Shown piece by piece: positions 31,826 through 46,368 of a DNA stretch of 64,000 nt. Under the pieces are notes generated by a model. The model saw nothing but the letters and a program-made list of their open reading frames with translations. It made no database searches and had not been told where the DNA came from. The stretch spans positions 99,399-163,398 of the IMG/VR virus record IMGVR_UViG_638277085_000001; one strand, given 5' to 3'. Every line of letters starts with the position of its first letter. The first letter of the stretch is position 1. The position numbers and the translations under genes are program-made. The stretch is from a virus. Taxonomy: Duplodnaviria; Heunggongvirae; Uroviricota; Caudoviricetes; Straboviridae.

Positions 31826-31856
31826 ATGCGGGTTGTTACGACATCCCGCATAAATA
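31826..31856 (+). promoter_or_regulatory. UACG hairpin overlapping a T4-type late promoter (ATAAATA)
   Basis: ATGCGGGTTGT-TACG-ACATCCCGCAT; ATAAATA 31850-31856 about 33 nt before the ATG. Confidence 0.6.
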
Positions 31857-31888: not shown

Positions 31889-32419
31889 ATGCCAACTCCT
31901 ACAACAGGTGCGATTTCAATCGGTACCGTTCGTGATTATTTCAGTAGAACCGGCGCTGCTTCATTGTCTCAGTACTACAGAGGCGGCGGTATTGTTCCTG
32001 ATATTACTGAAAATGCTCACGTACCAACTTCAGGCGCGATTAGCTTGAATGACTTGCGCGGTGTATATCGCTTGTCAACGTATACGACATCATTTACGAC
32101 AACATACAACACCACTGTATCAACATCGAATACGACTTCGCGTAGTACATCAAGAAGTACAACTAGAAGTACTGCATACAGTACAACTCGCTCGACTGCG
32201 TATACTACTAGTTGGACAACTAGCCGAACTACGTCGGTGACTAAAGGTTCGTATTCGACATCATACACGACTTCTCGTGCTACATCACGTTCAACATCAT
32301 ATAGCACGACACGTTCAACAGCTTATACGTCTACGTGGACAACATCATGGACAACCACGTACAACACAACAGTATCAACATCAAACACAACTTCGCGAAG
32401 CACGCAAGTTGCAGTTTAA
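31889..32419 (+). CDS. Ser/Thr tetrapeptide-repeat protein with adhesin-like N-terminal head (putative modified virion needle or RiPP-like precursor)
   Basis: AAGGA RBS; 63 aa head with two PT(T/S)GAIS motifs, then 14 tetrapeptides + G + 14 tetrapeptides. Confidence 0.85.
   Translation: MPTPTTGAISIGTVRDYFSRTGAASLSQYYRGGGIVPDITENAHVPTSGAISLNDLRGVYRLSTYTTSFTTTYNTTVSTSNTTSRSTSRSTTRSTAYSTTRSTAYTTSWTTSRTTSVTKGSYSTSYTTSRATSRSTSYSTTRSTAYTSTWTTSWTTTYNTTVSTSNTTSRSTQVAV
32078..32416 (+). repeat. protein-level 12-nt periodic repeat
   Basis: Units mostly [STA]-[RYWFVN]-[STN]-T; TTTYNTTVSTSNTTSRST occurs twice with different synonymous codons. Confidence 0.9.
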
Positions 32420-32431
32420 CAGGGTTAAATT

Positions 32432-32650
32432 ATGAGCTACAATGAAGAACACGAGAACCGAATCAACGAGCTTGAGAACAAGGTTTCAAAGCTTGAGTCG
32501 ATAATTGAAAATCTGGTCGAGTCAATGACTTCGAACAGCGAAGCTATTATCGAACATATTGCATCACTTGAGACCGAGAGGGATTCGATTCTTGCATCAT
32601 ATGATGACAAACTTAATGAGATCGTGACCAAATATGAACCCAAGCAATAG
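32432..32650 (+). CDS. small acidic coiled-coil protein
   Basis: Heptad pattern RINELENKVSKLESIIENL. Confidence 0.75.
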   Translation: MSYNEEHENRINELENKVSKLESIIENLVESMTSNSEAIIEHIASLETERDSILASYDDKLNEIVTKYEPKQ

Positions 32651-32654
32651 AGAA

Positions 32655-33488
32655 ATGACTGGGTTCAATAACATTTCTCGCACCGGTAAGTTGAAATTAC
32701 AATCCGATGCAGACAACGTCCGTGCCATGTGTATGGACGTTGTTCGTTTATTGAACTCTAAAAATATACCATCTAACTTCGACATCAATCACAATGACGG
32801 TGGTAACATCGGCGTGCATGAATGGGTGTCACAAATCCGCTTCATTCACTTGAAATACATGAACGTTAATTTCCAAACGAAGATTTTCAAGCATGCCTAT
32901 CATAACACTGAAAACGTCGTTGACTATTTTGACACGTTCAAACATTCTGACAAATATCATCTATCAGCGAAGCCTAGATTTTTAGAATATGAAAACGTCG
33001 TATTTCTATGTGGATCGAATGTACTTGAATTGGCAATTGACTTTGACAAGATTGATACGCTGGTCGAACATTATCCCGATTTAGTGATCAAACCACACCC
33101 GATTACGACGCTGTATTACATCAATATGCTTAAAACTCGATATGGATCGAAGCGCGTGCTTTCTCAGAAGATCAGCGGTGTTGATGTTCTTAAATCTGCT
33201 AAACGTGTTTGGCTACCTTCAACGTCTGAGTTCTGGTTTAGTGCCTTGAACTACGACAAAGAAATCGGGTTTATCTCTAAAGATGGTTTCTGTGGAACGT
33301 ACACGTCAATCATCAACGCAGTATGGGAATTGCATGAAGAAACCGGTGATCCATTGAAAGATATTGTGAATAAAATTATCTCGTCACCTTACTCAGGTCT
33401 GTATGGTAGTATGGCAGACTTTGAAGAGCATCACGAGAAATACTGTAATGTGATTCTAGAACTAGGGGGTAATTTCGATAATGTATGA
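32655..33488 (+). CDS. GT-B glycosyltransferase-like protein (KpsS/KpsC or sialyltransferase-like HP motif)
   Basis: LVIKPHP motif followed by DVLKSAKRV...SEFWF..ALNYDKEI. Confidence 0.6.
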   Translation: MTGFNNISRTGKLKLQSDADNVRAMCMDVVRLLNSKNIPSNFDINHNDGGNIGVHEWVSQIRFIHLKYMNVNFQTKIFKHAYHNTENVVDYFDTFKHSDKYHLSAKPRFLEYENVVFLCGSNVLELAIDFDKIDTLVEHYPDLVIKPHPITTLYYINMLKTRYGSKRVLSQKISGVDVLKSAKRVWLPSTSEFWFSALNYDKEIGFISKDGFCGTYTSIINAVWELHEETGDPLKDIVNKIISSPYSGLYGSMADFEEHHEKYCNVILELGGNFDNV

Positions 33489-34113
33489 TTATGTAATTCA
33501 CACTTCGATTAGTGACAAAAGTCAGCTAAACCAACTAGTGATGTTTGTCGGGTCTTTCATCGAGACGCACAAAAAAGGTCGCGTGGTCTGCGTGACTGAT
33601 CTTGAACTTGATTTCACGATGCCTCGACTGTCATTTGAGAAAAAACTACCCGAAGAGTACGTTTTCATTTCAGTTGACAATCTATTTTTACAAAAAACAT
33701 ACGGCGTTGTTAGCTACATTGACAGTGGTACTTGGCGATGTACTTGGCAAAAGAATGATCATGATGATTTCGTCATTAAAAAGCATGGCGAAAGAAGCGG
33801 GTTGATTCACCCTGATATTGCAATTGCAAATTACAATGTTTCGAGACATGGCGATCTCGACATGTATTACAACGCGCTTCGTTACATTGAGAGCGCAATC
33901 ACGATCAACTGCAAAGACTTTGCCCCTGCTGCTGAGAATAAAATCAACAGCTTTTACACGCTTGTATTTCCATGGGAGATTTATTTTCACGTTATGATCA
34001 CTTACCAAGAGTATATTGATTCTGAATACGTTGAGCGAGTTCGCGCTAACTGTCATAAGTTCGCACACTCGGTTTATTACAGAAAATCAGGGTTGTTACG
34101 TGATGGGTTATGA
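33481..34113 (+). CDS. putative GT-A-like glycosyltransferase / tailoring enzyme
   Basis: N-terminal beta-alpha-beta (YVIHTS...RVVCVTD) and FISVDNLFL resembling a DxD region; weak. Confidence 0.4.
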   Translation: MYDYVIHTSISDKSQLNQLVMFVGSFIETHKKGRVVCVTDLELDFTMPRLSFEKKLPEEYVFISVDNLFLQKTYGVVSYIDSGTWRCTWQKNDHDDFVIKKHGERSGLIHPDIAIANYNVSRHGDLDMYYNALRYIESAITINCKDFAPAAENKINSFYTLVFPWEIYFHVMITYQEYIDSEYVERVRANCHKFAHSVYYRKSGLLRDGL

Positions 34114-34786
34114 TGAGATAATTTTAGTATCTGGTCTTGATAGTTTAGTTCTATATGAATTTCTTGAACGAAAGCCACACCCTGTTTACTTTAAATGGGG
34201 TTTTGCTATCGACGACATTGAAATGGCTGCTTTGCCTGAAGAAACAACTATCATAGAAATGCCAGAGATTTTGCATTTGAAACATGATCCGTATGAGTTC
34301 AAGACACCAAGAAATCCCGATTTAATTGGTCGGAATACGTTGATGTTTAACTCAGTTTTCCATGCATTCAGACCAAACGTAATTTATCGCGGGATGTTGA
34401 AAGGTGATGATTTCTATTACGACGCATCGCCTACGCATTCAGATGAAATCGCAGCTATGTGGTCGAAAATGCTGAATAAAGAGTGTCGAATTGAACAACC
34501 GTTCAAAGACAAAACGAAACGTGACATAATGCAAATGGCGGTCGAATACGGTATTGATGCGAATTCATTACAGCATTGTTACAATCGAGAACACAACTGC
34601 GGTCGATGTAGCAAGTGTGTGGATGCACATGTTAATTCTATGTACACCGACAACCCAGACATCATGTGGCTGAAACGAATAGTTAATGACTCGGGTATGG
34701 CATCATTGGCTAATCACATGTTTGGTGTTGATACAGTTGACAGAATAAAGGAATTTCTAGATGAATTTGATCGAACAGACTGCTGA
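34103..34786 (+). CDS. QueC-like PP-loop ATPase
   Basis: ILVSGLDS PP-loop, QPF...TKRDI, C-terminal CY-x5-CGRCSKC zinc site. Confidence 0.75.
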   Translation: MGYDEIILVSGLDSLVLYEFLERKPHPVYFKWGFAIDDIEMAALPEETTIIEMPEILHLKHDPYEFKTPRNPDLIGRNTLMFNSVFHAFRPNVIYRGMLKGDDFYYDASPTHSDEIAAMWSKMLNKECRIEQPFKDKTKRDIMQMAVEYGIDANSLQHCYNREHNCGRCSKCVDAHVNSMYTDNPDIMWLKRIVNDSGMASLANHMFGVDTVDRIKEFLDEFDRTDC

Positions 34787-35654
34787 TAAATTCGAGCATA
34801 GTTACCGAGAAGACGTTCAAGGCGTACAGTGGTATTTCGGTAGTCGAACGCATGATTTTTATCTGTATGGAATAGACTCTCTTATTGATAAAGTCAAAGA
34901 CTGTGATTTTATTGAAATCAAGCATGTTCAAGAGGGTACGCTGGTTAAACGAGGCGAAGCTGCGGTCACGGTTACGATTACAGATCATAGTCGTATCGCA
35001 TATGGGAACATGATTGAAACATTGTTGTACAATGAGTTGTGGTATTCGAGCACGGTCGGTACGATTTTACACCGTTGTCTTGATGTGTTGCATGAAAACG
35101 GCTATGACGCTCGTTCAGCATACCCTCAAATCGGACGGGCGAGTTCAACGCCAGAACAGTCAGCTAAAGCAAGGGATGTGTTCGCACGTATATTTTATCA
35201 ATCGTCGAATGAGAAAATACCCGTTGCGATGCACAGTGATATTTTAATCAACGGTGAGGAATATTGCATGGAACATTATAACGGCATCATGATTGATACT
35301 TTCGATAAGCAAGCTTGCATTGACTTGATCAACAAGAAAGACTTTCGAGGGACTGTGATGGTTGACTCTCAGCCAATAATTGAAACAATTGAGAGAGTTC
35401 TAGCTGAAACAAAATGCTTTGTTGCACAAGCTGAAAGTGTTACACTCGATGAGTGGATAGAGATAGTGCGACATTTTAAAGGCAATAAGCGAATTTTCTA
35501 CGGGATTGGTAGCTTTGCATTTAGCAATATATCACGAGACACATTTGGTTTGATTTACAAAGTGTGTGCAGTTAAGAAAAACGACAACTGGATCGGAGTT
35601 TCAAAGATGACGACAGGTAAACAAACATCGGCTGGTTATAAGGTTATAGGTTAG
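34761..35654 (+). CDS. degenerate NAMPT/NAPRTase-like type II phosphoribosyltransferase
   Basis: WYSSTV, MHS, IDTFD, VDS, YGIGS, RDTFGLIYKV, K.TTGKQTSAG parallel the NadV motifs. Confidence 0.7.
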   Translation: MNLIEQTADKFEHSYREDVQGVQWYFGSRTHDFYLYGIDSLIDKVKDCDFIEIKHVQEGTLVKRGEAAVTVTITDHSRIAYGNMIETLLYNELWYSSTVGTILHRCLDVLHENGYDARSAYPQIGRASSTPEQSAKARDVFARIFYQSSNEKIPVAMHSDILINGEEYCMEHYNGIMIDTFDKQACIDLINKKDFRGTVMVDSQPIIETIERVLAETKCFVAQAESVTLDEWIEIVRHFKGNKRIFYGIGSFAFSNISRDTFGLIYKVCAVKKNDNWIGVSKMTTGKQTSAGYKVIG

Positions 35655-35656
35655 TT

Positions 35657-36646
35657 ATGAATTATTGTATAGCGCCGTTTACATCGCCGTCTATTACACC
35701 AGACGGTTTTAAAATTTGCAGCATGCCAGGTCAGAAAGTATACCCTGATATTTCATTCTGGAATAGTGATGAAGTGATCAAGATTCGCGAACAGATTATC
35801 GCTGGTGAAATTCCTGAATCGTGCAAGGCATGTCGTAGTATGCGTGACGGGTTGATTGTGTCAAAAGAAAAACCAACTGATACTCATGTTGACTTGAATT
35901 TCAAAGCTCTTTACATTGCGCGGTCGAACAAGTGTGAATATGCTTGTGAAATGTGCAGTTCATCAATCTCACATAGCTATGACAAGAAATACAATGACGG
36001 TAAGTTGGGGATTATTGAGAATGACTTTGATGTTATTCCGTATCTGCACGAAACACAAGCCGTTGCTATTTCGGGCGGGAACCCTGTCATTGACAAAAAG
36101 GTTGCAGAGATTCTTGAGAATCTAGACCCTGACGTGGTAGAACGTTTCATTATTACTTCAAATGGGACAGTCTTTCCAGACAGATTCTTGAATGCAATTA
36201 AGAGATTGAAATGTGACGCGACTTTGATATTCTCTATGGACGGACCGAAAGAGTTTAATGAAGTGGTTCGATCTGGTGCGAAGCAAGAGAGAATCTATCG
36301 CACCATTAATCGAGTTCTTGACGAGATTGAAGATTACCCAAACTTGCATGTGGCAATTGAGTATACTTTCACGAATAAGTCAATTCATCACTACGTTGAT
36401 TTGTATGATGAAATGCTCTTCGAGATCAACCCGAAGCATTTGAAAAACAACTCAGTTAAAGTGATTGCGAATATGTGTACATACCCGCATCACCTTAGCG
36501 TTACAACTGTTCCCAAAACCGTCATTGATGACATATTGTTCAATCAGTTGCCGTATTTGAGACAGCAACCCAGCCCATTGTCAAATCAATTCAAACTTGG
36601 CTATGATAAGTTTTTGACTCAGTATCACAACAGCGTGATTATGTGA
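35657..36646 (+). CDS. radical SAM enzyme with N-terminal twitch-like Cys cluster
   Basis: CEYACEMC (CxxxCxxC), ISGGNP, TSNGT, SMDG; N-terminal C..PF...C...C..C. Confidence 0.9.
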   Translation: MNYCIAPFTSPSITPDGFKICSMPGQKVYPDISFWNSDEVIKIREQIIAGEIPESCKACRSMRDGLIVSKEKPTDTHVDLNFKALYIARSNKCEYACEMCSSSISHSYDKKYNDGKLGIIENDFDVIPYLHETQAVAISGGNPVIDKKVAEILENLDPDVVERFIITSNGTVFPDRFLNAIKRLKCDATLIFSMDGPKEFNEVVRSGAKQERIYRTINRVLDEIEDYPNLHVAIEYTFTNKSIHHYVDLYDEMLFEINPKHLKNNSVKVIANMCTYPHHLSVTTVPKTVIDDILFNQLPYLRQQPSPLSNQFKLGYDKFLTQYHNSVIM

Positions 36647-37763
36647 TCAGATCATACGCTTTGATATGTGAGTAAAACTCTGGACACGCAGACGATAAAT
36701 TAGTTTTCGTCTTCGTGTCTATTCTTTTGTTAAGAACAAAGAATTCAGGGTTGAATTTACAAACACTGTGTTCCAGAGTAAGACATTCAGCAACGTGCTT
36801 AAATGGTCTAGCCAAATCCTCACGCCCATCTTTTAAATACGCTTCTTCTTTCACTTTGAATCTTGATAATAGCTGGTCTCGAAATGCAACTGGAATGTTG
36901 TAAATTGAGTATGGATTATCAGGCTCACCGACGACATGCACAGACAAACGTACACGTTTACCATCATAAAGCGAATCAAAATCTGAAACCAATGTTTCAA
37001 GATGTTCAAGAGTCACGTTTGACACGGTCGCAGTGATAACTACATCAAAGTGTTGCTTGATGACTTCAATGTTTGATTTGACTTTTTTGATGTCTGCAAA
37101 CAATCGAATATAATCTTGGTATTCTCGTAGACCGTCGATTGATACGAACACCGTTGATGCATTAGCTTCTTTAAGCGATTTGATGAGATCTGAGCCATCG
37201 GCTAACACTAGTGATGAGCCATTCGTGAAAATATTCACTGCGGCTTTAATGTCGCCTACGTTGCGAAGAACTTCAGGAGCATTTGACGAGCGGGTAATTT
37301 CACCGCCTAGAATTGTCAATGACGAAAGTCCTTTGCTGATTGTGTTGATTGTCGTACTCAAATCATTGAATCGAGTACTTGAATCTTCTTCATTGAACAA
37401 TCTAGCCTTCAAGTCTGATAATTTGCTGTAGCAGTAACGACAAGCTTGATTACATTCATTACTAGGGAATACTTGTAGCCAGCGAACTGAATCAGCGGGC
37501 ATAATAGGTGAAACTTCAGAATCGTGTTCTGTTAGACGCTGTGGGTCATTATCAGTAATGCACATTTGACATGCCTTTGACAGCTTGCTCATGTCGTGGT
37601 TTAGCATTGCTTCACGATAAGCGACAAGCTTTTCATCATTCCAAGCGTCTGCTAGTGTTTTTTCATCAGTAAACCATTCATAATCAGCCGAACAGCAAAA
37701 CGTAATTTGATTGTTTGCTCGTGTGATGAACTGCTTGAACGGCATATAACATAGTGGTTTCAT
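36639..37763 (-). CDS. radical SAM enzyme with N-terminal twitch-like Cys cluster
   Basis: CNQACRYC, LGGE, FTNGS, SIDG; N-terminal CYMPF...CC...CQMC. Confidence 0.9.
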   Translation of the reverse strand: MKPLCYMPFKQFITRANNQITFCCSADYEWFTDEKTLADAWNDEKLVAYREAMLNHDMSKLSKACQMCITDNDPQRLTEHDSEVSPIMPADSVRWLQVFPSNECNQACRYCYSKLSDLKARLFNEEDSSTRFNDLSTTINTISKGLSSLTILGGEITRSSNAPEVLRNVGDIKAAVNIFTNGSSLVLADGSDLIKSLKEANASTVFVSIDGLREYQDYIRLFADIKKVKSNIEVIKQHFDVVITATVSNVTLEHLETLVSDFDSLYDGKRVRLSVHVVGEPDNPYSIYNIPVAFRDQLLSRFKVKEEAYLKDGREDLARPFKHVAECLTLEHSVCKFNPEFFVLNKRIDTKTKTNLSSACPEFYSHIKAYDLIT

Positions 37764-37773
37764 GTTTCTGTCC

Positions 37774-38346
37774 TTAGTTAAAAATGCTACTTGTATATAT
37801 AGCAGTCTTCAGGGCATTGAAATGATCGTCAACTCTATTCACGTGTATGCATTCAATGTCAAATCTTTCTTGGATTTCTCGGATGTTGTCTAGCGAGTCG
37901 TCGATGAAGTATTTCACCTCATGCAGTTCACACAGCTTCTCGACATACTTTGCCTTCGAGTCGAAGTACTCAATCGAAATCACCTCACTTATCATCCCTG
38001 GGAATAACGCATTTAGATTATACACGCGATTTGACCATGAAGTTCTACTCATGCTGAACTTGGTTAGTGCAATGATGTTATATCGGTCTGAGAGTTCGCG
38101 TAACGCATCGTAAGCGTCTTCATATGCGGGTATGTACTTTGCACACTCATGTTCATTGTATGCGCCTATAAGCTTTCCTAGTTGCATGTCACTCACGTTA
38201 ATAAATAAAGAGCGTGCATCGGTATCAGTATTTGAACCGTTGATATTCAAATTATCAAGCATGCCTAATTGCATCATGAAGAATGGCAAGTTGGCTTTCC
38301 AGTTAAGCAAAACCCCGTCTACATCTATGATGATCGTCTTTTTCAT
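37774..38346 (-). CDS. HAD-family phosphatase (5'(3')-nucleotidase / T4 30.2-like)
   Basis: IIIDVDGVLL motif I, ALT motif II, FIDD motif IV. Confidence 0.8.
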   Translation of the reverse strand: MKKTIIIDVDGVLLNWKANLPFFMMQLGMLDNLNINGSNTDTDARSLFINVSDMQLGKLIGAYNEHECAKYIPAYEDAYDALRELSDRYNIIALTKFSMSRTSWSNRVYNLNALFPGMISEVISIEYFDSKAKYVEKLCELHEVKYFIDDSLDNIREIQERFDIECIHVNRVDDHFNALKTAIYTSSIFN

Positions 38347-38386
38347 TACTACCTCGAAAAAAATTAAAATTTTTCGAAAAAAAGTA

Positions 38387-38415
38387 TTGACACTTAGTTT
38401 CGTTCATGTAATACT
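38387..38415 (+). promoter_or_regulatory. sigma70 promoter
   Basis: A-tracts, TTGACA 38387, TAATACT near 38409. Confidence 0.6.
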
Positions 38416-38815: not shown

Positions 38816-40309
38816 ATGCTAAATCTTAATCAAAATATCGCAATCGCAACTGACAGCTACAAAGTTTCACACTGGTCTCAATTCCCTCGTGGTCTAGAGT
38901 ACAGCCAATATTACGTCGAAAGCCGGGGTGGTAAGTTCGACAAAATTATGGTCGATGGTATGGCATACATGTGTCGTATTCTCGAAAAAGGTGTTTCGAT
39001 GAACGATGTCAAGCGTGCGAAACGTCTGTTCAAAAAGCACTTCGGTTCTGAAGTCTTCAATGACAAGGGTTGGGACATCATCGTTAACGAACTGAAAGGC
39101 AAACTGCCTATTAAGATTCGTGCGGTCAAAGAAGGTACTGTAGTACCAGTTAAACACCCTATCTTGACGATTGAGAACACAGATCCGCGTTTTGGTTGGC
39201 TGCCTGGCTATCTTGAAACGTTCATCTTGCGTGCTCTTTGGTACCCGACAACTGTAGCAACGATCTCGTTCGAAGTGAAGAAAATCATTCGCCAATTCAT
39301 GAAGAAGACGGTTGATGATGAACGCATTGCAGAACAAGAGCCGTTCAAACTTCACGACTTTGGTTCTCGTGGTGTATCAAGTGGCGAATCTGCGGCTATC
39401 GGCGGCTCTGCTCACTTGAAAAACTTCTTGGGTACTGACACTGTAGAAGCACTTGTTGCAGTTGAAGAACTTTACGCTGAAGATGTTGAAGACTTCATTG
39501 CAGGATTCTCAATCCCTGCACGTGAACACTCAACAACTACAATCTACAAAGAAGCTGGTGAAGACCAAGCATTCTTGAACTCTATTGAGCAATGGGGTGC
39601 TGCATTATACGCTTGTGTAATGGACAGCTACGACTACGAAGCAGCAATGAATCGTGTCTCGACTGGTCGCTTCAAAGAGCTAATCATCAGCAAAGGCGGT
39701 ACGTTTGTTGCTCGTCCTGACTCTGGTGTGCCTGTAGATGTAGTAATGAAAGGTCTTGAGATTCTTGGTAAAAACGTTGGTTATACAATCAACAGCAAGG
39801 GTTACAAAGTATTGCACCCTAGCTACCGTATCATTCAAGGTGACGGCGTGAACATCGAAGAAATTCGTCGAATCTTGTCTTACATGGAAAGTAAAGGCTG
39901 GTCGGCAGAAAATATTGCATTCGGTATGGGTGGCGGGTTGCTTCAACAACTTGACCGTGATACTCAACGCTTTGCAATGAAAATGTCAGCGGCAATCATC
40001 AACGGCGAATACGTTAGCGTGTTCAAAATGCCGAAGACTGATCCGACAAAAGCATCAAAAGCAGGTTTCTTGGATTTGATTGCAGTTGATGCAGACAATC
40101 CGAACCCAGCGGCTCGTGGTTACGTGACGTTCTCTTCTGAAGATTACGACAATCGCGTACACCCGAAAAGCGTGATGCAGACAATCTTCGAAGACGGTGT
40201 AACAGTTGCCGACTTCTCACTAGAAGAAGCGCGTAAACTGTCTGACGTACAAGCTGATTTCCTGAACGAAGGTGAATGGAAAATCGCGAAAAAGATTCAA
40301 ACTGCGTAA
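38816..40309 (+). CDS. nadV: nicotinamide phosphoribosyltransferase
   Basis: TDSYKVSH, WYPTTVAT, LHDFGSRG, PAREHS, RPDSG, IQGDG, FGMGGGLLQ, RDT. Confidence 0.96.
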   Translation: MLNLNQNIAIATDSYKVSHWSQFPRGLEYSQYYVESRGGKFDKIMVDGMAYMCRILEKGVSMNDVKRAKRLFKKHFGSEVFNDKGWDIIVNELKGKLPIKIRAVKEGTVVPVKHPILTIENTDPRFGWLPGYLETFILRALWYPTTVATISFEVKKIIRQFMKKTVDDERIAEQEPFKLHDFGSRGVSSGESAAIGGSAHLKNFLGTDTVEALVAVEELYAEDVEDFIAGFSIPAREHSTTTIYKEAGEDQAFLNSIEQWGAALYACVMDSYDYEAAMNRVSTGRFKELIISKGGTFVARPDSGVPVDVVMKGLEILGKNVGYTINSKGYKVLHPSYRIIQGDGVNIEEIRRILSYMESKGWSAENIAFGMGGGLLQQLDRDTQRFAMKMSAAIINGEYVSVFKMPKTDPTKASKAGFLDLIAVDADNPNPAARGYVTFSSEDYDNRVHPKSVMQTIFEDGVTVADFSLEEARKLSDVQADFLNEGEWKIAKKIQTA

Positions 40310-44045: not shown

Positions 44046-45098
44046 TCATTTCACCATTTTGATTTGAATCTGATTGTCCATGTAAGCCATTTTCTTTTCA
44101 AATTCAACATCATATTCTGGTCGATGTTCGTATTCGACTGAAAGCATTTGCTTCAGACAACGGTACAATTCCGACTTGTAATACCCTTCTTTCATTCCCT
44201 TCATCTGTTCATATTGCTTTTTCATAGCAGCTTTGATTATCTTCGGGTCCATGAATTTGATTGACATTTCTCGCGGTGCTTTTACTGTGCCAAAGTCAAC
44301 AAACACCTGAGCCTTTTCAGCTACTTGAATGAAGTCATAAATCGTGTCATAACTCATTCGACTTAGCGTGTGGTGCATACAAACATGTTTGCTATGTTCT
44401 TTTAGCAACGGTACATTTGCAAGCATCAAGTCGTGGTCGATGTTCTGACGAATGTATTCGTTGCGCTCTTTTCCGCCGTCACATGAAATTGTAAACACTA
44501 GACGATGTTTGTACTTTTTACATATGGCTAGAATCTTCTTCGCAAGTGGCGTATGCAACACAGTACCATTTGTCAGAATGTAAACTTCCGCATTTGTTTC
44601 TTCCATGACTTCAGTCAGAACTTCGACTGTTCTCTTGTCCATGAACGGTTCGCCGCCGTATAGCACAACAGTTTCAACACCCTTCGGGATACTGAAATCG
44701 AGTTGTGTGTAATCGTAATGGTCGTCAATGTCATACAAGTCCATGTATGTTTTGCTATTCTTGCCATAGCACATTCGACACGCTAGGTTACATTTGTTTG
44801 ACATCAATATTTGAATTGTTCTAGGATGCTCTTCGAGTGCTTCATATTCGAAGTACTTCTGATCAGACAATTCGCCATAACTCATACATTCTTTGCAGTA
44901 TTCTGGTAAAGTGTCATACTCAAACATTTTGGCACGATGTTCATTGATGATGTCACTGTGCCACCAGTCTTCAACGTTCGGGAATGGTTCACTTAGCTGA
45001 GAACAGCAAATGTGATACCCATCAGGTTTTGCGTCACGTGTATTAAAGGGAGAGCCACAAAGTGGTCTCTTCCCGTCTTTAAATCCGAATTTATCCAT
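44046..45098 (-). CDS. radical SAM enzyme with N-terminal twitch-like Cys cluster
   Basis: CNLACRMC, YGGEPF, LTNGT, SCDG; N-terminal CGSPF...CC...CKEC. Confidence 0.9.
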   Translation of the reverse strand: MDKFGFKDGKRPLCGSPFNTRDAKPDGYHICCSQLSEPFPNVEDWWHSDIINEHRAKMFEYDTLPEYCKECMSYGELSDQKYFEYEALEEHPRTIQILMSNKCNLACRMCYGKNSKTYMDLYDIDDHYDYTQLDFSIPKGVETVVLYGGEPFMDKRTVEVLTEVMEETNAEVYILTNGTVLHTPLAKKILAICKKYKHRLVFTISCDGGKERNEYIRQNIDHDLMLANVPLLKEHSKHVCMHHTLSRMSYDTIYDFIQVAEKAQVFVDFGTVKAPREMSIKFMDPKIIKAAMKKQYEQMKGMKEGYYKSELYRCLKQMLSVEYEHRPEYDVEFEKKMAYMDNQIQIKMVK

Positions 45099-45370
45099 TA
45101 ATCTAGCTCATCAAGAAGTGATTGAAATTCCTCGTCGCGTTCAGCGTCGATTGTACCAGTCATCAACTCTGTTAGAGTCTTCAACGACTTGATCTCTGGT
45201 GGTTGAGGGCGTAGATCTTCGAGAATGTGAATGATTGACTCGGCTGGGAGATCGTGATTTACGATCTCATCTGGCAGGTGGTGTTTGTAAACGCAGTCGT
45301 CGCCCCAATCAATAACTACTGCATGTTCCCATTTGTCGATTTCTAGTATTTTAAAATTTGGTTTCATCAT
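45098..45370 (-). CDS. small acidic hypothetical protein
   Basis: Coupled to both neighbours; MKPNFKILEID start. Confidence 0.6.
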   Translation of the reverse strand: MMKPNFKILEIDKWEHAVVIDWGDDCVYKHHLPDEIVNHDLPAESIIHILEDLRPQPPEIKSLKTLTELMTGTIDAERDEEFQSLLDELD

Positions 45371-46368
45371 AAGCCCCAGAGTTCTTTCCAATGTGTTTTA
45401 GCATCTTGTCGATACTTCTCAATGTCAAATTTTTGATATTTCTGTTCGATTGCATCATCAATGACGCGAATCAACGTATCATTGTTTATATCAGCACGAA
45501 TCACTGGGAAAATAAAATCCCTTGTGTAAGGTGCGTCATGCTGAACAATACAAGGTATGTACTGACATGCTTCTAATAACGCATATGGCATAATCTCGAT
45601 TCTAGACATATGAAGCAAAACTTTACTTTTCATCATATGTGCCATGACTCGCTCACGCCGCTGACAAGTTTCGACTATACAATCAACACCATTCGGGATT
45701 CTTATTGATTCGGTTGTGAATAGACGAATTTTAAGACCGCTGTATGCAAGCGCGTTTAGCATTTCGGGTATCTGCTTACGTTTGTATGCACCTGACACGA
45801 TAATCACGTCAGACTCTTCAGCAGCGTCAATATCAGCTTGTGATATGGACGGAAGCTCAAAAGGTTCAAATGCAGTCACATGTTTGCCACCGATTACTTC
45901 TCGACCCCATTGTGCAATCCCGTTCGATTGAGCAATGTTAGTGACTAATGACGTTGACATCATGTGTCGCCATTGAGGTAAGTTGTAAATTTGATGAATG
46001 TCCATGTATTCGCGATATGAATCTGGTACTATCAAGTCACCGAAATGATGTTGGTTGTAACAACGGCGCTTCGCTTCGATACATGCGCGGAGTGCTTCAT
46101 ATGAATGCGTATAGATAATCGCTTCGCTATCAATCGCGTTGATAACCATTGCGTTTGCCTTGTAGTCTTTATAAGACCGTTTCGTTAAAATGAAGTCACA
46201 CCCGAAATCCCATTTACTCACGTGCGGACACGATTCGTCTCCGAGTACAATAACTTTGACATCACAGTTTAGTGATTGCATTAAACGAACGTGATCTTGA
46301 ATGAATGTGTAAATACCGCCGCCAATTCCCAACATAAAGTCAGTTACTACGTAGCGAACTTTTTTCAT
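45367..46368 (-). CDS. GT4-like (GT-B retaining) glycosyltransferase
   Basis: N-terminal GGG and SKVLLHMSRIEIMPYALLEAC...PCIV (E-x7-E motif). Confidence 0.75.
   Translation of the reverse strand: MKKVRYVVTDFMLGIGGGIYTFIQDHVRLMQSLNCDVKVIVLGDESCPHVSKWDFGCDFILTKRSYKDYKANAMVINAIDSEAIIYTHSYEALRACIEAKRRCYNQHHFGDLIVPDSYREYMDIHQIYNLPQWRHMMSTSLVTNIAQSNGIAQWGREVIGGKHVTAFEPFELPSISQADIDAAEESDVIIVSGAYKRKQIPEMLNALAYSGLKIRLFTTESIRIPNGVDCIVETCQRRERVMAHMMKSKVLLHMSRIEIMPYALLEACQYIPCIVQHDAPYTRDFIFPVIRADINNDTLIRVIDDAIEQKYQKFDIEKYRQDAKTHWKELWGL

What the first reader, a model, noticed from the sequence alone, without database searches (positions are those of the whole stretch)
34761..35654. A second, stripped-down NAMPT-like enzyme 3 kb from an intact nadV
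The 297 aa ORF keeps the NAMPT skeleton in order, but with many conserved residues changed: WYSSTV vs WYPTTV, YPQIGRA vs HDFGSRG, MHS vs EHS, IDTFD vs MDSYD, VDSQ vs PDSG, AQAES vs QGDG, YGIGS vs FGMGG, RDTFG vs RDTQR. It is about 200 aa shorter than NadV. Because canonical NadV is already present, this is probably a repurposed phosphoribosyltransferase (different base, or transfer of ribose-phosphate to a protein or sugar) serving the cluster.
Basis: partly seen in the sequence, partly recalled or inferred. Interest (0 to 1): 0.7.

Follow-up and report, generated by a model that had tools for sequence, protein, structure and literature searches.

The report
Repurposed NAMPT-like enzyme beside phage adhesin
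This Vibrio phage (KVP40-type) gene encodes a shortened relative of the NAD-salvage enzyme NAMPT that is kept under selection, has lost the nicotinamide-binding residues, and in five phage lineages lies next to a QueC-like ligase gene and a tail-fibre-tip (adhesin-like) gene, so it probably does a new, untested job that is not NAD salvage.

Summary
ORF 34761-35654 (+) is an intact 297-aa gene with a ribosome-binding site. It folds as a NAMPT-type (type II) phosphoribosyltransferase (AF2 pLDDT 95.6; VIA Z 23.9 to a bacterial NAMPT). It lies 3.2 kb upstream of the intact NadV.

It is not a decaying pseudogene: dN/dS is 0.07-0.13. It belongs to a small, rare clade of about 10 clusters, separate from canonical NAMPTs.

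All ten members keep the residues that I assign from memory of the NAMPT literature to PRPP/phosphate binding and catalysis (human R40, R196, H247, D279, D313, R392, D393, K400, K415, K423). All ten have replaced the nicotinamide-side residues (F193 to Q/K, D219 loop deleted or changed, R311 to M/I/L/V, G353/D354).

In all five phage lineages found, the gene abuts or overlaps a gene of a distinct QueC-family ATP-pyrophosphatase, directly or across a small radical SAM gene. The enzyme genes follow a gene for a small protein with a shared N-terminal "head". In four lineages this sits right after or among tail genes (S74 fibres in three), and in one the protein is a Pfam GP38 adhesin.

Best reading: an active, repurposed PRPP-dependent transferase that works with the QueC-like ligase on a non-nicotinamide acceptor linked to the fibre-tip protein. 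Chemistry and target are untested, and a non-catalytic binding role remains possible. I found no published description.

The parts
34761..35654 (+). NAMPT-like type II phosphoribosyltransferase homologue, 297 aa (P0001); the finding
   Evidence: ORF and RBS. Pfam, PHROG and PDB profile hits. AF2 pLDDT 95.6. Foldseek to human NAMPT E 4e-18. VIA Z 23.9 to Xcc NAMPT. dN/dS 0.07-0.13. Site table.
34103..34786 (+). QueC-family ATP-pyrophosphatase (227 aa); its 3' end overlaps the NAMPT-like start by 26 nt; the constant partner
   Evidence: Pfam QueC 4.5e-9, PHROG 1550 3.6e-52. PADLOC CBASS-type QueC 3e-13. Profile against PDB: QueC 4e-14 and Cap9 8e-14. AF2 model (pLDDT 81.7) matches QueC and Cap9 best. 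SGxDS loop and Cys4 zinc motif conserved.
31889..32419 (+). Head-module protein with a Ser/Thr/Arg tetrapeptide-repeat tail (176 aa from the annotated start); adhesin-like, first gene of the cassette
   Evidence: Translation. Head aligns with proteins encoded after tail genes in other phages. Conserved at the head of the cassette in L012 and F86.
31850..31856 (+). ATAAATA, a T4-late-promoter-like heptamer 33 nt before the head-module gene's ATG and preceded by a hairpin
   Evidence: Only 5 copies in the 64 kb against 11 expected. Function is inferred, not shown.
32432..32650 (+). 72-aa coiled-coil-like protein, conserved in the KVP40-type cassette
32634..33488 (+). 284-aa protein with an IKPHP motif; weak likeness to KpsS/GT52 glycosyltransferases; KVP40-type cassette only
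   Evidence: Pfam GT52 6e-4, below cut-off. PHROG 30602. Atlas structural TM 0.57 to the KpsS/LipB family.
33481..34113 (+). 210-aa protein of unknown family (PHROG 30897); KVP40-type cassette only
35657..36646 (+). Radical SAM enzyme with an N-terminal twitch domain; starts 2 nt after the NAMPT-like stop
   Evidence: Pfam Radical_SAM. NCBIfam NF033640 3e-34, below its cut-off. Found in the same 28 phage records as the NAMPT-like gene.
36639..37763 (-). Second N-twitch radical SAM enzyme, convergent with the first
38816..40309 (+). Canonical NadV/NAMPT (497 aa). A comparator, not part of the cassette; the NARP2 enzyme of KVP40
   Evidence: Pfam NAMPT_N 3.8e-40 and NAPRTase 1.3e-47. 359 bits to human NAMPT. 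10.1101/2024.02.11.579819.

Best explanation
The ORF encodes a functional, neofunctionalised member of the NAMPT branch of type II phosphoribosyltransferases. It keeps the part of the NAMPT active site that I take to hold PRPP and its phosphates, including the phospho-histidine. Its acceptor pocket is rebuilt, so nicotinamide is no longer the substrate. It works as the second enzyme of a pair with the QueC-family ATP-pyrophosphatase gene that overlaps its start. That family activates a heteroaromatic carboxylate as an acyl-adenylate and joins it to ammonia or to a protein amine. The pair belongs to a variable cassette headed by a small tail-fibre-tip (gp38-like, adhesin-like) protein and is probably expressed late. 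My committed mechanism is as follows. The QueC-like enzyme activates and ligates a 7-carboxy-7-deazaguanine-like base. The NAMPT-like enzyme then puts ribose-5-phosphate from PRPP on a ring nitrogen of that base. The result is a nucleotide-like product or protein modification associated with the adhesin. Shown here: gene integrity, selection, fold, the residue pattern, the separate clade and the synteny. Inferred: PRPP use, the acceptor, the order of steps and the target. I give about 0.45 to the general statement (an active repurposed transferase coupled to the QueC-like enzyme with a non-nicotinamide acceptor) and about 0.2 to the specific deazaguanine-on-adhesin version.
For: The gene is intact, has an RBS, and abuts or overlaps the genes on both sides. 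dN/dS is 0.07-0.13 in unsaturated pairs. The AF2 model has pLDDT 95.6; its nearest folds are NAMPT (Z 23.9), then NAPRT (20.8), then QPRT (about 17). In all 10 family members R40, H247, D279, D313, R392, D393, K400, K415, K423 and G428 are invariant and R196 is kept (K in one). F193 is Q/K/C (a gap in one member), D192 mostly P, D219 deleted or changed, R311 M/I/L/V and G353 A/V/I/M/L; most of the replacements are conserved within the family (human numbering). The family is a separate clade from 27 canonical NAMPTs, including this phage's NadV (SH-aLRT 100). A QueC-like gene lies next to it, directly or across one small gene, in the KVP40-type phages and in L005, L007, L008 and L021, mostly with 1-26-nt overlaps. 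The QueC-like proteins form their own rare subfamily that keeps the P-loop, the zinc Cys4 and, in my reading of the alignment, the R99-, Y131- and K165-type residues (motifs from PMC13329287). In all five lineages a head-module protein gene comes first. One of these is Pfam GP38 at 2.6e-20. Three follow S74 fibres and one follows a tail protein. VH7D, which lacks the enzymes, carries at the same locus a head-module protein with a different C-terminal domain. The precedent for QueC-family enzymes ligating a deazaguanine to a protein, paired with a glycosidic-bond enzyme homologue (Cap9/Cap10), is 10.1101/2025.04.06.647259 and PMC13279940.
Against: There is no biochemical result. The R311 equivalent is hydrophobic in every member, and the G353-D354 equivalents are also lost. 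The NARP paper cites R311 as important for human NAMPT activity and inactivated Namat by mutating its homologue. One homologue (P0007) stands alone in a bacterial contig beside a transposase, with no QueC-like gene or adhesin called nearby. The QueC-like proteins lack the Q/H of YxQxHxxE and the Cys of YPDC, so CDG as substrate is uncertain. The head-module proteins do not share an N-terminal glycine motif like QatB or CdnD. From general knowledge, DNA downstream of tail-fibre genes is a common landing site for unrelated accessory genes. The copy in phi-pp2 carries a frameshift, so the gene may be dispensable.
Confidence: 0.45

Rival explanations
1. It is a non-catalytic, ligand-binding or scaffold subunit (a pseudoenzyme). 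It would use the remodelled NAMPT pocket to hold a base, a nucleotide or the modified protein for the QueC-like enzyme. This would parallel Cap10, the TGT-family protein of type IV CBASS, which is remodelled to bind the deazaguanylated N-terminus.
For: The R311, G353 and D354 equivalents are lost in all members, and R311 is cited as important for human NAMPT activity. About 200 residues are deleted, including regions that I recall contributing to the NAMPT dimer interface. The Cap10 precedent is 10.1101/2025.04.06.647259.
Against: Ten positions that I assign to phosphate binding or catalysis, including the phospho-histidine H247 equivalent and the acidic pair D279/D313, are invariant across members only 25-35% identical. 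That is unusual for a mere binding module.
Confidence: 0.2
2. It transfers ribose-5-phosphate from PRPP directly onto a hydroxyl or amine of the adhesin-like protein or of a glycan on it. This is how the PRPP-dependent ribofuranosyltransferases of capsule and O-antigen synthesis work (CriT with the phosphatase CrpP). The QueC-like enzyme would carry out a separate step.
For: The KVP40-type target candidate is extremely Ser/Thr-rich, and a KpsS-like glycosyltransferase-like gene lies in the cassette. PRPP-dependent O-ribosylation followed by a HAD phosphatase is established (PMC10299916, PMC12096443). A neighbouring gene has a weak HAD hit, E 0.004, below cut-off.
Against: CriT has the five-stranded alpha/beta PRTase core of the nucleotide-synthesis PRTases, which I classify as type I and not the NAMPT fold. 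In the other lineages the partner proteins are Gly-rich or globular, not Ser/Thr-rich, and no glycosyltransferase or phosphatase is present there. The weak-HAD gene (PHROG 420, labelled '30.2 superfamily' in the QD01 record) may be a conserved flanking gene rather than part of the cassette.
Confidence: 0.12
3. It makes a free, unusual nucleotide from a base and PRPP. The product would serve DNA or RNA modification, signalling or counter-defence. Under this reading the position next to adhesin genes is only a hotspot effect. From memory, the analogy is ToyM (QueC) plus the phosphoribosyltransferase ToyH in toyocamycin biosynthesis.
For: The enzyme set is typical of nucleobase chemistry: QueC-like, NAMPT-like and, in L008 and L021, small RlmN/Cfr-like radical SAM enzymes. 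The phage makes 7-deazaguanine precursors elsewhere in its genome (PMC12028318). P0007 occurs alone in a bacterium.
Against: A head-module gene directly precedes the enzyme genes in five of five phage lineages, and the enzymes are absent when that protein carries another C-terminal domain at the same locus in VH7D. This is hard to explain by hotspot chance alone.
Confidence: 0.15
4. It is an ordinary, merely compact NAMPT, NAPRT or Namat paralogue that adds to NAD salvage next to NadV.
For: Records annotate it automatically as nicotinamide or nicotinate phosphoribosyltransferase. It lies 3 kb from NadV.
Against: F193, D219 and R311 are all replaced. There is no NAMPT_N hit. It scores 63.5 bits against the 405-bit cut-off of the NCBIfam equivalog. 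No Prs/Adps-like gene appears among the annotated or scanned neighbours. It is a separate clade. Between the window and QD01 it is 76% identical where NadV is 96%, so the two genes have different histories. Many KVP40 relatives with NadV lack it.
Confidence: 0.06
5. It is a decaying pseudogene or an annotation artefact.
For: The phi-pp2 copy has a +1 frameshift near codon 207.
Against: It is intact in 27 other phage records down to 49% identity. dN/dS is 0.07-0.13. The fold is predicted with high confidence.
Confidence: 0.02

Closest known systems
NAMPT / NadV (EC 2.4.2.12), including the KVP40 NadV of the NARP2 pathway
   Same: Same fold and nearest structural neighbour (Z 23.9, rmsd 2.3 A over 285 residues). 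The equivalents of R40, R196, H247, D279, D313, R392, D393, K400, K415 and K423 are kept.
   Different: About 200 residues shorter, with no NAMPT_N domain hit. F193, D192, D219, R311, G353 and D354 are replaced or deleted. It forms a separate clade and is linked to a QueC-like gene, not to an NMN adenylyltransferase.
Namat, the nicotinamide ADP-ribose transferase of the phage NARP1 pathway (10.1101/2024.02.11.579819)
   Same: A phage NAMPT homologue that was repurposed by changing a substrate. This shows the scaffold is evolvable in phages.
   Different: Namat changes the donor (ADPR-PP) and keeps nicotinamide and the R311-type arginine; it is paired with the Prs homologue Adps. Here the acceptor side is changed, the arginine is lost, and the partner is a QueC-like enzyme.
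Cap9-Cap10 of type IV CBASS, and QatC-QatB (protein deazaguanylation)
   Same: A QueC-family enzyme sits next to a homologue of an enzyme that makes base-ribose bonds, beside a candidate protein target. The QueC-like protein here scores as well against Cap9 as against QueC.
   Different: Those are bacterial defence systems; the second protein is TGT-like, not NAMPT-like; the target is the N-terminal glycine of a CD-NTase or of QatB. Here the system is in phages, beside tail-fibre genes, and no shared N-terminal glycine motif is seen.
ToyM (QueC) and ToyH (phosphoribosyltransferase) of toyocamycin/sangivamycin biosynthesis (from memory, not checked here)
   Same: The logic of amidating or dehydrating a deazapurine carboxylate and then attaching ribose-5-phosphate from PRPP.
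   Different: As I recall, ToyH is a type I PRTase. That pathway sits in an actinomycete antibiotic cluster with GTP cyclohydrolase, QueD and QueE.
CriT/CrpP-type PRPP-dependent ribofuranosyltransferases (PMC10299916)
   Same: They use a phosphoribosyltransferase-like enzyme to decorate a macromolecule rather than to make a nucleotide.
   Different: Different PRTase fold class, an obligatory HAD phosphatase partner, and polysaccharide acceptors.

Membership tests
Type II phosphoribosyltransferase superfamily (Pfam PF04095 NAPRTase; QPRT/NAPRT/NAMPT fold) | Match to the family model above its curated cut-off | tested here: met
   28.5 bits against a cut-off of 20.8, E 1.6e-6. Family profile against PDB NAMPTs at E 1e-17.
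Type II phosphoribosyltransferase superfamily (Pfam PF04095 NAPRTase; QPRT/NAPRT/NAMPT fold) | Two-domain fold: an open-faced sandwich plus an irregular alpha/beta barrel | tested here: met
   AF2 pLDDT 95.6. Foldseek TM 0.8 by query. VIA Z 23.9 (NAMPT), 20.8 (NAPRT) and 16-20 (QPRT).
NAMPT / NadV proper | N-terminal NAMPT_N domain (PF18127) | tested here: not met
   No hit in P0001, whereas NadV in the same window scores 3.8e-40. The region is largely deleted in the alignment.
NAMPT / NadV proper | Nicotinamide site: aromatic clamp F193 (with Y18 of the other subunit) and D219 | tested here: not met
   F193 is Q123 (Q/K/C in the family, a gap in one member). The D219 loop is deleted in the seven short members and is R/T/E in the three longer ones. 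The Y18 position is F/M/V/Y.
NAMPT / NadV proper | R311 of the RPDSG motif (cited as important for human NAMPT activity; its homologue was mutated to inactivate Namat) | tested here: not met
   M200 here and M/I/L/V in all ten members.
NAMPT / NadV proper | Phospho-histidine H247 and the basic and acidic residues I assign to PRPP/phosphate binding | tested here: met
   H158, R29, R126, D179, D202, R259, D260, K267, K282 and K287 are conserved in the family; nine are invariant and R126 is K in one member.
NAMPT / NadV proper | Score above the NCBIfam equivalog cut-off | tested here: not met
   NF006629 scores 63.5 bits against a cut-off of 405.
NAMPT / NadV proper | Nicotinamide + PRPP gives NMN | not testable with these tools
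   Needs an enzyme assay.
Namat (NARP1) | Adjacent Adps (a Prs homologue) | tested here: not met
   No Prs-like gene appears among the neighbours that were annotated or scanned. The rest of the genome was not searched for one.
Deazaguanylation systems (Cap9-Cap10, QatBC) | QueC-family ligase with an intact P-loop and zinc site beside the target gene | tested here: met
   The neighbouring gene 34103-34786.
Deazaguanylation systems (Cap9-Cap10, QatBC) | TGT-family Cap10, or QatB with an N-terminal glycine motif; a CD-NTase or QatA/QatD | tested here: not met
   No PADLOC hit other than QueC and weak viperin-like hits. No PF01702 match in the genome. The N-termini of the head-module proteins differ from one another.
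CriT-type PRPP-dependent ribofuranosyltransferases | PRTase-like catalytic core of the nucleotide-synthesis type, with a HAD phosphatase partner | tested here: inconclusive
   The fold here is type II. The only HAD-like signal is a sub-threshold hit (E 0.004) in a neighbouring gene.

The most novel reading that the evidence does not exclude
Phage receptor-binding tip proteins (gp38-like adhesins and their Ser/Thr-repeat relatives) are covalently decorated with a nucleobase or nucleotide. A dedicated two-enzyme module would do this: a QueC-like ligase attaches the base, and the NAMPT-like enzyme turns it into a ribotide on the protein. This would be a nucleotide-type post-translational modification of a virion adhesin, the phage-side counterpart of the deazaguanylation recently found in bacterial defence.
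Probability: 0.15. Interest if true: 0.9.

Novelty: new variant of a known kind. Interest (0 to 1): 0.66.

Why it matters
NAMPT-family enzymes in phages are currently read as NAD-salvage and counter-defence genes (NARP1, NARP2), and this gene is annotated that way automatically. The evidence here points to a separate subfamily with another substrate. It is tied to a QueC-like enzyme and to the most variable, host-range-determining part of the virion. If the pair modifies the adhesin or makes a new nucleotide, that would add a new reaction to the type II phosphoribosyltransferases. It would extend QueC-family ligation chemistry from bacterial immunity to phages. It would also point to an unrecognised factor in receptor recognition by large vibriophages that are being studied for aquaculture phage therapy. 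If the protein is only a binding subunit, it would still be a clear case of an enzyme scaffold turned into a reader.

Tried and rejected
- Searches for more family members found nothing beyond the few listed. The family is rare, so the synteny statistics rest on five phage lineages.
- P0008 (1877 aa, 33 'stretches') is the translation of a tandem repeat and not a relative.
- Pairwise BLAST between the KVP40-type head and the L005 head is only marginal (E 0.012). The link goes through VH7D gp152, which occupies the same locus (E 3e-11 to L005, 1e-6 to L008) and through the multiple alignment.
- The idea that the small radical SAM enzymes of L008 and L021 are QueE-like was rejected. They resemble RlmN/Cfr only around the cluster-binding motif.
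- The HAD-like neighbour (37774-38346) as a dedicated phosphatase was set aside. The hit is below cut-off, and the gene (PHROG 420, labelled '30.2 superfamily' in the QD01 record) looks like a conserved flanking gene rather than part of the cassette.
- Virion proteomics of 6E35.1a (PMC12028318 supplement) lists none of the cassette enzymes. The Ser/Thr-repeat gene is not annotated as one gene in that genome, so it could not have been detected. This says nothing about its presence in virions.
- Literature searches for this gene pair found no description. The QueC-family survey PMC13329287 does not mention a phosphoribosyltransferase partner.
Full report
WHAT THE WINDOW IS

The window is part of a 244,834-bp virus record. 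Over the studied region it is 99% identical to Vibrio phage VH1_2019, 98.5% to PVA8 and 96% to phi-pp2, which are KVP40-type Schizotequatrovirus phages. PVA8's gene notes refer to KVP40 locus tags.

ORF 34761-35654 (+) gives 297 residues without stops. An AAGGA lies 8 nt before the ATG. The start overlaps the end of the upstream QueC-like gene by 26 nt, and the stop is 2 nt before the ATG of the next gene. GC content matches the surroundings.

The protein matches Pfam NAPRTase above its cut-off and PHROG 448 'nicotinamide phosphoribosyl transferase' at 4e-37. A profile of its family matches solved NAMPTs at 1e-17 over nearly its whole length. The intact NadV (497 aa, NAMPT_N plus NAPRTase) lies at 38816-40309.

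IT IS A REAL, SELECTED GENE WITH A NAMPT FOLD

- tblastn finds the gene intact in 27 further phage records, at 100% down to 49% identity. All are Vibrio phages of this group.
- In pairs where synonymous sites are not saturated, dN/dS is 0.07-0.13.
- One record, phi-pp2, has a +1 frameshift near codon 207.
- AlphaFold2 with a 31-sequence alignment gives mean pLDDT 95.6.
- Foldseek puts human NAMPT first (E 4e-18, TM 0.8 by query).
- An independent all-against-representatives search gives Z 23.9 (rmsd 2.3 A, 285 residues) for Xanthomonas NAMPT and 23.6 for another NadV. NAPRT scores 20.8 and the QPRTs 16-20.

IT IS NOT A COPY OF NadV BUT A SEPARATE, RARE SUBFAMILY

A full HMMER scan of 1.84 billion representatives found only a handful of close relatives. 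These are about 295-aa forms (P0001-P0007) and about 390-400-aa forms (P0009, P0010, P0011). Below them come ordinary NAMPTs at E 1e-6 or worse.

In a quick maximum-likelihood tree, the short forms are one clade (SH-aLRT 98). With the longer forms they sit across a long, fully supported branch from 27 canonical NAMPTs, which include this phage's NadV (midpoint root, quick search only).

Between the window and phage QD01 the gene is 76% identical with saturated dS. NadV is 96% identical with dS 0.39. The cassette therefore has a different history from NadV. Many relatives with NadV at 90-94% DNA identity lack the cassette.

THE ACTIVE-SITE PATTERN IS THE KEY RESULT

I mapped human NAMPT numbering through the NadV-to-5upe alignment and the 31-sequence alignment, then tabulated ten family members against 21 canonical sequences.

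Kept in all ten members:
- R40, H247, D279, D313, R392, D393, K400, K415, K423 and G428 are invariant.
- R196 is kept (K in one member).
- S280 and S425 are conservatively T.

Replaced in all ten members:
- F193 is Q/K/C (a gap in one member).
- D192 is mostly P.
- D219 is deleted, or R/T/E in the longer forms.
- R311 is M/I/L/V.
- G353 is A/V/I/M/L.
- G355 is S/T/N.
- D354 is E/S/Q in eight members and kept as D in two.
- E246 and H191 vary.

F193 with Y18' and D219 hold nicotinamide. The NARP paper cites Arg311 as important for human NAMPT activity and inactivated Namat by mutating the homologous Arg306 (10.1101/2024.02.11.579819).

The donor half of the site is therefore conserved across proteins only 25-35% identical. 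The acceptor half is replaced, mostly by new residues that are themselves conserved within the family. This is the pattern of a changed function, not of decay. The loss of R311 and of G353/D354 means that activity is not assured.

THE SURROUNDINGS

In the window the gene is the sixth of a tightly packed same-strand run, followed by a convergent gene:
- 31889-32419: a protein with a 60-residue head and a Ser/Thr/Arg-rich tetrapeptide-repeat tail.
- 32432-32650: a small coiled-coil protein.
- 32634-33488: a 284-aa protein with weak KpsS/GT52 likeness.
- 33481-34113: a 210-aa protein of unknown family.
- 34103-34786: the QueC-like gene.
- 34761-35654: the NAMPT-like gene.
- 35657-36646: a radical SAM enzyme with an N-terminal twitch domain.
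- 36639-37763 (-): a second, convergent radical SAM enzyme.

An ATAAATA heptamer, which resembles the T4 late-promoter box and is under-represented in the window (5 copies against 11 expected), lies 33 nt before the first gene. Late co-transcription is my inference. The same order of genes is kept in relatives at about 50% identity (F86, D479/L012, 6E35.1a).

THE COMPARATIVE RESULT THAT CHANGES THE PICTURE

Every other phage context of the family carries the same core.
- L005: two S74-domain tail fibres, then a 291-aa protein with the same head and a polyglycine tail, then QueC-like, then NAMPT-like, then a tail collar fibre.
- L007: a 676-aa tail protein, then an uncalled 272-aa ORF that is a Pfam GP38 tail-fibre adhesin (2.6e-20), then QueC-like, then NAMPT-like.
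- L008: an S74 fibre, a 166-aa head-module protein, QueC-like, a small radical SAM enzyme, NAMPT-like, and a second QueC-like.
- L021: two S74 fibres, an 86-aa protein, a 319-aa head-plus-polyglycine protein, QueC-like, a small radical SAM enzyme, NAMPT-like, then the lysis genes.

In these four loci each enzyme gene overlaps the next called gene by 4 to 59 nt. The small radical SAM enzymes resemble RlmN/Cfr around the cluster motif.

The heads align across all contexts. VH7D, a KVP40 relative that lacks the enzymes, has at the very same locus a 177-aa protein with the same head but a different, non-repetitive C-terminal domain, followed by PagP and NadV. Its head matches that of L005 at E 3e-11 and that of L008 at 1e-6.

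The locus therefore behaves as an exchangeable cassette: one head with varying cargo. The enzymes come with particular cargo. One bacterial homologue (P0007) stands alone beside a transposase, which is a caveat.

THE PARTNER ENZYME

The QueC-like proteins form their own rare subfamily.
- They carry an SGxDS P-loop, one residue shorter than the canonical SGGxDS.
- They keep the Cys4 zinc motif.
- In my reading of the alignment they keep a GR(D/N) that corresponds to the essential R99 of the VPxRN loop, an aromatic-x-acid that corresponds to YPDC, and the conserved lysine.
- They lack the Q/H of YxQxHxxE (motif definitions from PMC13329287).

A profile matches QueC and Cap9 equally well. The AF2 model (pLDDT 81.7) finds QueC, Cap9 and QueC again as its best folds, with QatC lower. 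PADLOC's CBASS-type QueC model matches over its full length.

QueC-family enzymes adenylate the carboxylate of 7-carboxy-7-deazaguanine. In Cap9, and probably in QatC, the activated base is transferred to a protein N-terminus (10.1101/2025.04.06.647259; PMC13279940). The phage has a canonical QueC and a QueD elsewhere in its genome. The group is reported to carry a core preQ0/DpdA cluster (PMC12028318), so deazaguanine precursors should be present in infected cells.

HOW IT MOST LIKELY WORKS

I commit to an active PRPP-dependent transferase with a new acceptor, acting together with the QueC-like ligase in a cassette that serves the fibre-tip protein.

The most specific version has two steps. 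The ligase attaches a CDG-like base. The NAMPT-like enzyme then ribotidylates that base. This version rests on analogy (Cap9/Cap10, and from memory ToyM/ToyH) and on the nucleobase-type enzyme set. I give it about 0.2, and about 0.45 to the general statement.

The rivals, with my odds:
- A Cap10-like non-catalytic reader: 0.2.
- A free unusual nucleotide, with hotspot co-location only: 0.15.
- Direct phosphoribosylation of the protein or its glycan, as with CriT/CrpP (PMC10299916): 0.12.
- Ordinary NAD salvage: 0.06.
- A pseudogene: 0.02.

COMPARISON WITH WHAT IS KNOWN, AND NOVELTY

The protein is a member of the type II PRTase superfamily and of the NAMPT branch by fold. It fails the defining NAMPT features: the NAMPT_N domain, F193/D219, R311 and the equivalog score. 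It also lacks Namat's partner among the neighbours I looked at. I therefore do not file it as NAMPT, NAPRT or Namat.

Public records annotate it automatically as a nicotinamide or nicotinate phosphoribosyltransferase. I found no paper that discusses it or the QueC-like/NAMPT-like/adhesin association.

I rate it a new variant of a known kind. The surrounding system could prove to be new in kind if a protein-nucleotide modification is shown.

Noticed in passing
window 31889-32419; L022:7864-8397 (VH7D gp152); L005:6450-7325; L008:6016-6516; L021:5635-6594: A shared N-terminal head of about 55 aa (motif like [ST]GxIS[LM]..., ending in SGxISxxDLRGK) carries very different C-terminal domains: Ser/Thr tetrapeptide repeats, polyglycine, or a small globular domain. 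In other phages these proteins are encoded right after S74 tail fibres. The arrangement looks like a modular fibre-tip adhesin family with cassette exchange.
   Followed up: partly
L007:6476-7294: A 272-aa GP38-family adhesin ORF (Pfam 2.6e-20) was not called in the source record. A spurious 100-aa ORF in another frame was called in its place.
   Followed up: yes
L003:3347-3904 (phage F86) and 6E35.1a near 160.5-161.0 kb: The Ser/Thr-repeat gene is unannotated, or split into tiny ORFs, in these public records. Proteomic surveys that use those annotations could not have detected it.
   Followed up: partly
L017:301-1195 (phi-pp2): The NAMPT-like gene has a +1 frameshift near codon 207. The record annotates only a 210-aa product. 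This could be a sequencing error or a real loss.
   Followed up: partly
window 32000-38400 compared with 38816-40309: Between the window and phage QD01 the cassette genes are 76-83% identical in protein with saturated dS, whereas the adjacent NadV is 96% identical with dS 0.39. The region is mosaic, as expected for a fast-evolving or exchanged host-range module.
   Followed up: partly
L008:7138-8004; L021:7249-8004: Small radical SAM proteins of 250-290 aa, with weak RlmN/Cfr likeness around CxxxCxxC, sit between the QueC-like and NAMPT-like genes in two lineages. The KVP40 type instead has two N-terminal-twitch radical SAM enzymes.
   Followed up: partly
window 44046-46368 (-): A third N-twitch radical SAM enzyme (NF033640, 4.8e-39) lies with a 333-aa protein of unknown family on the minus strand, 8 kb downstream. 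It may belong to the same system.
   Followed up: no
G000 whole record: There is no Pfam TGT (PF01702) match anywhere in the genome, although the literature reports a core DpdA in this phage group. The phage DpdA is presumably too diverged for that model.
   Followed up: no
window, both strands: ATAAATA occurs 5 times against 11 expected. One copy lies 33 nt upstream of the head-module gene and another at the start of the S74 fibre region (61638). This fits a late-promoter signal that is avoided elsewhere.
   Followed up: partly
L006:8001-8912: The only non-phage family member (P0007, 36% identical, with all conserved site residues) lies alone in a 196-kb bacterial metagenome contig, between a tyrosine-phosphatase-like gene and a transposase and near a group II intron.
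   Followed up: no
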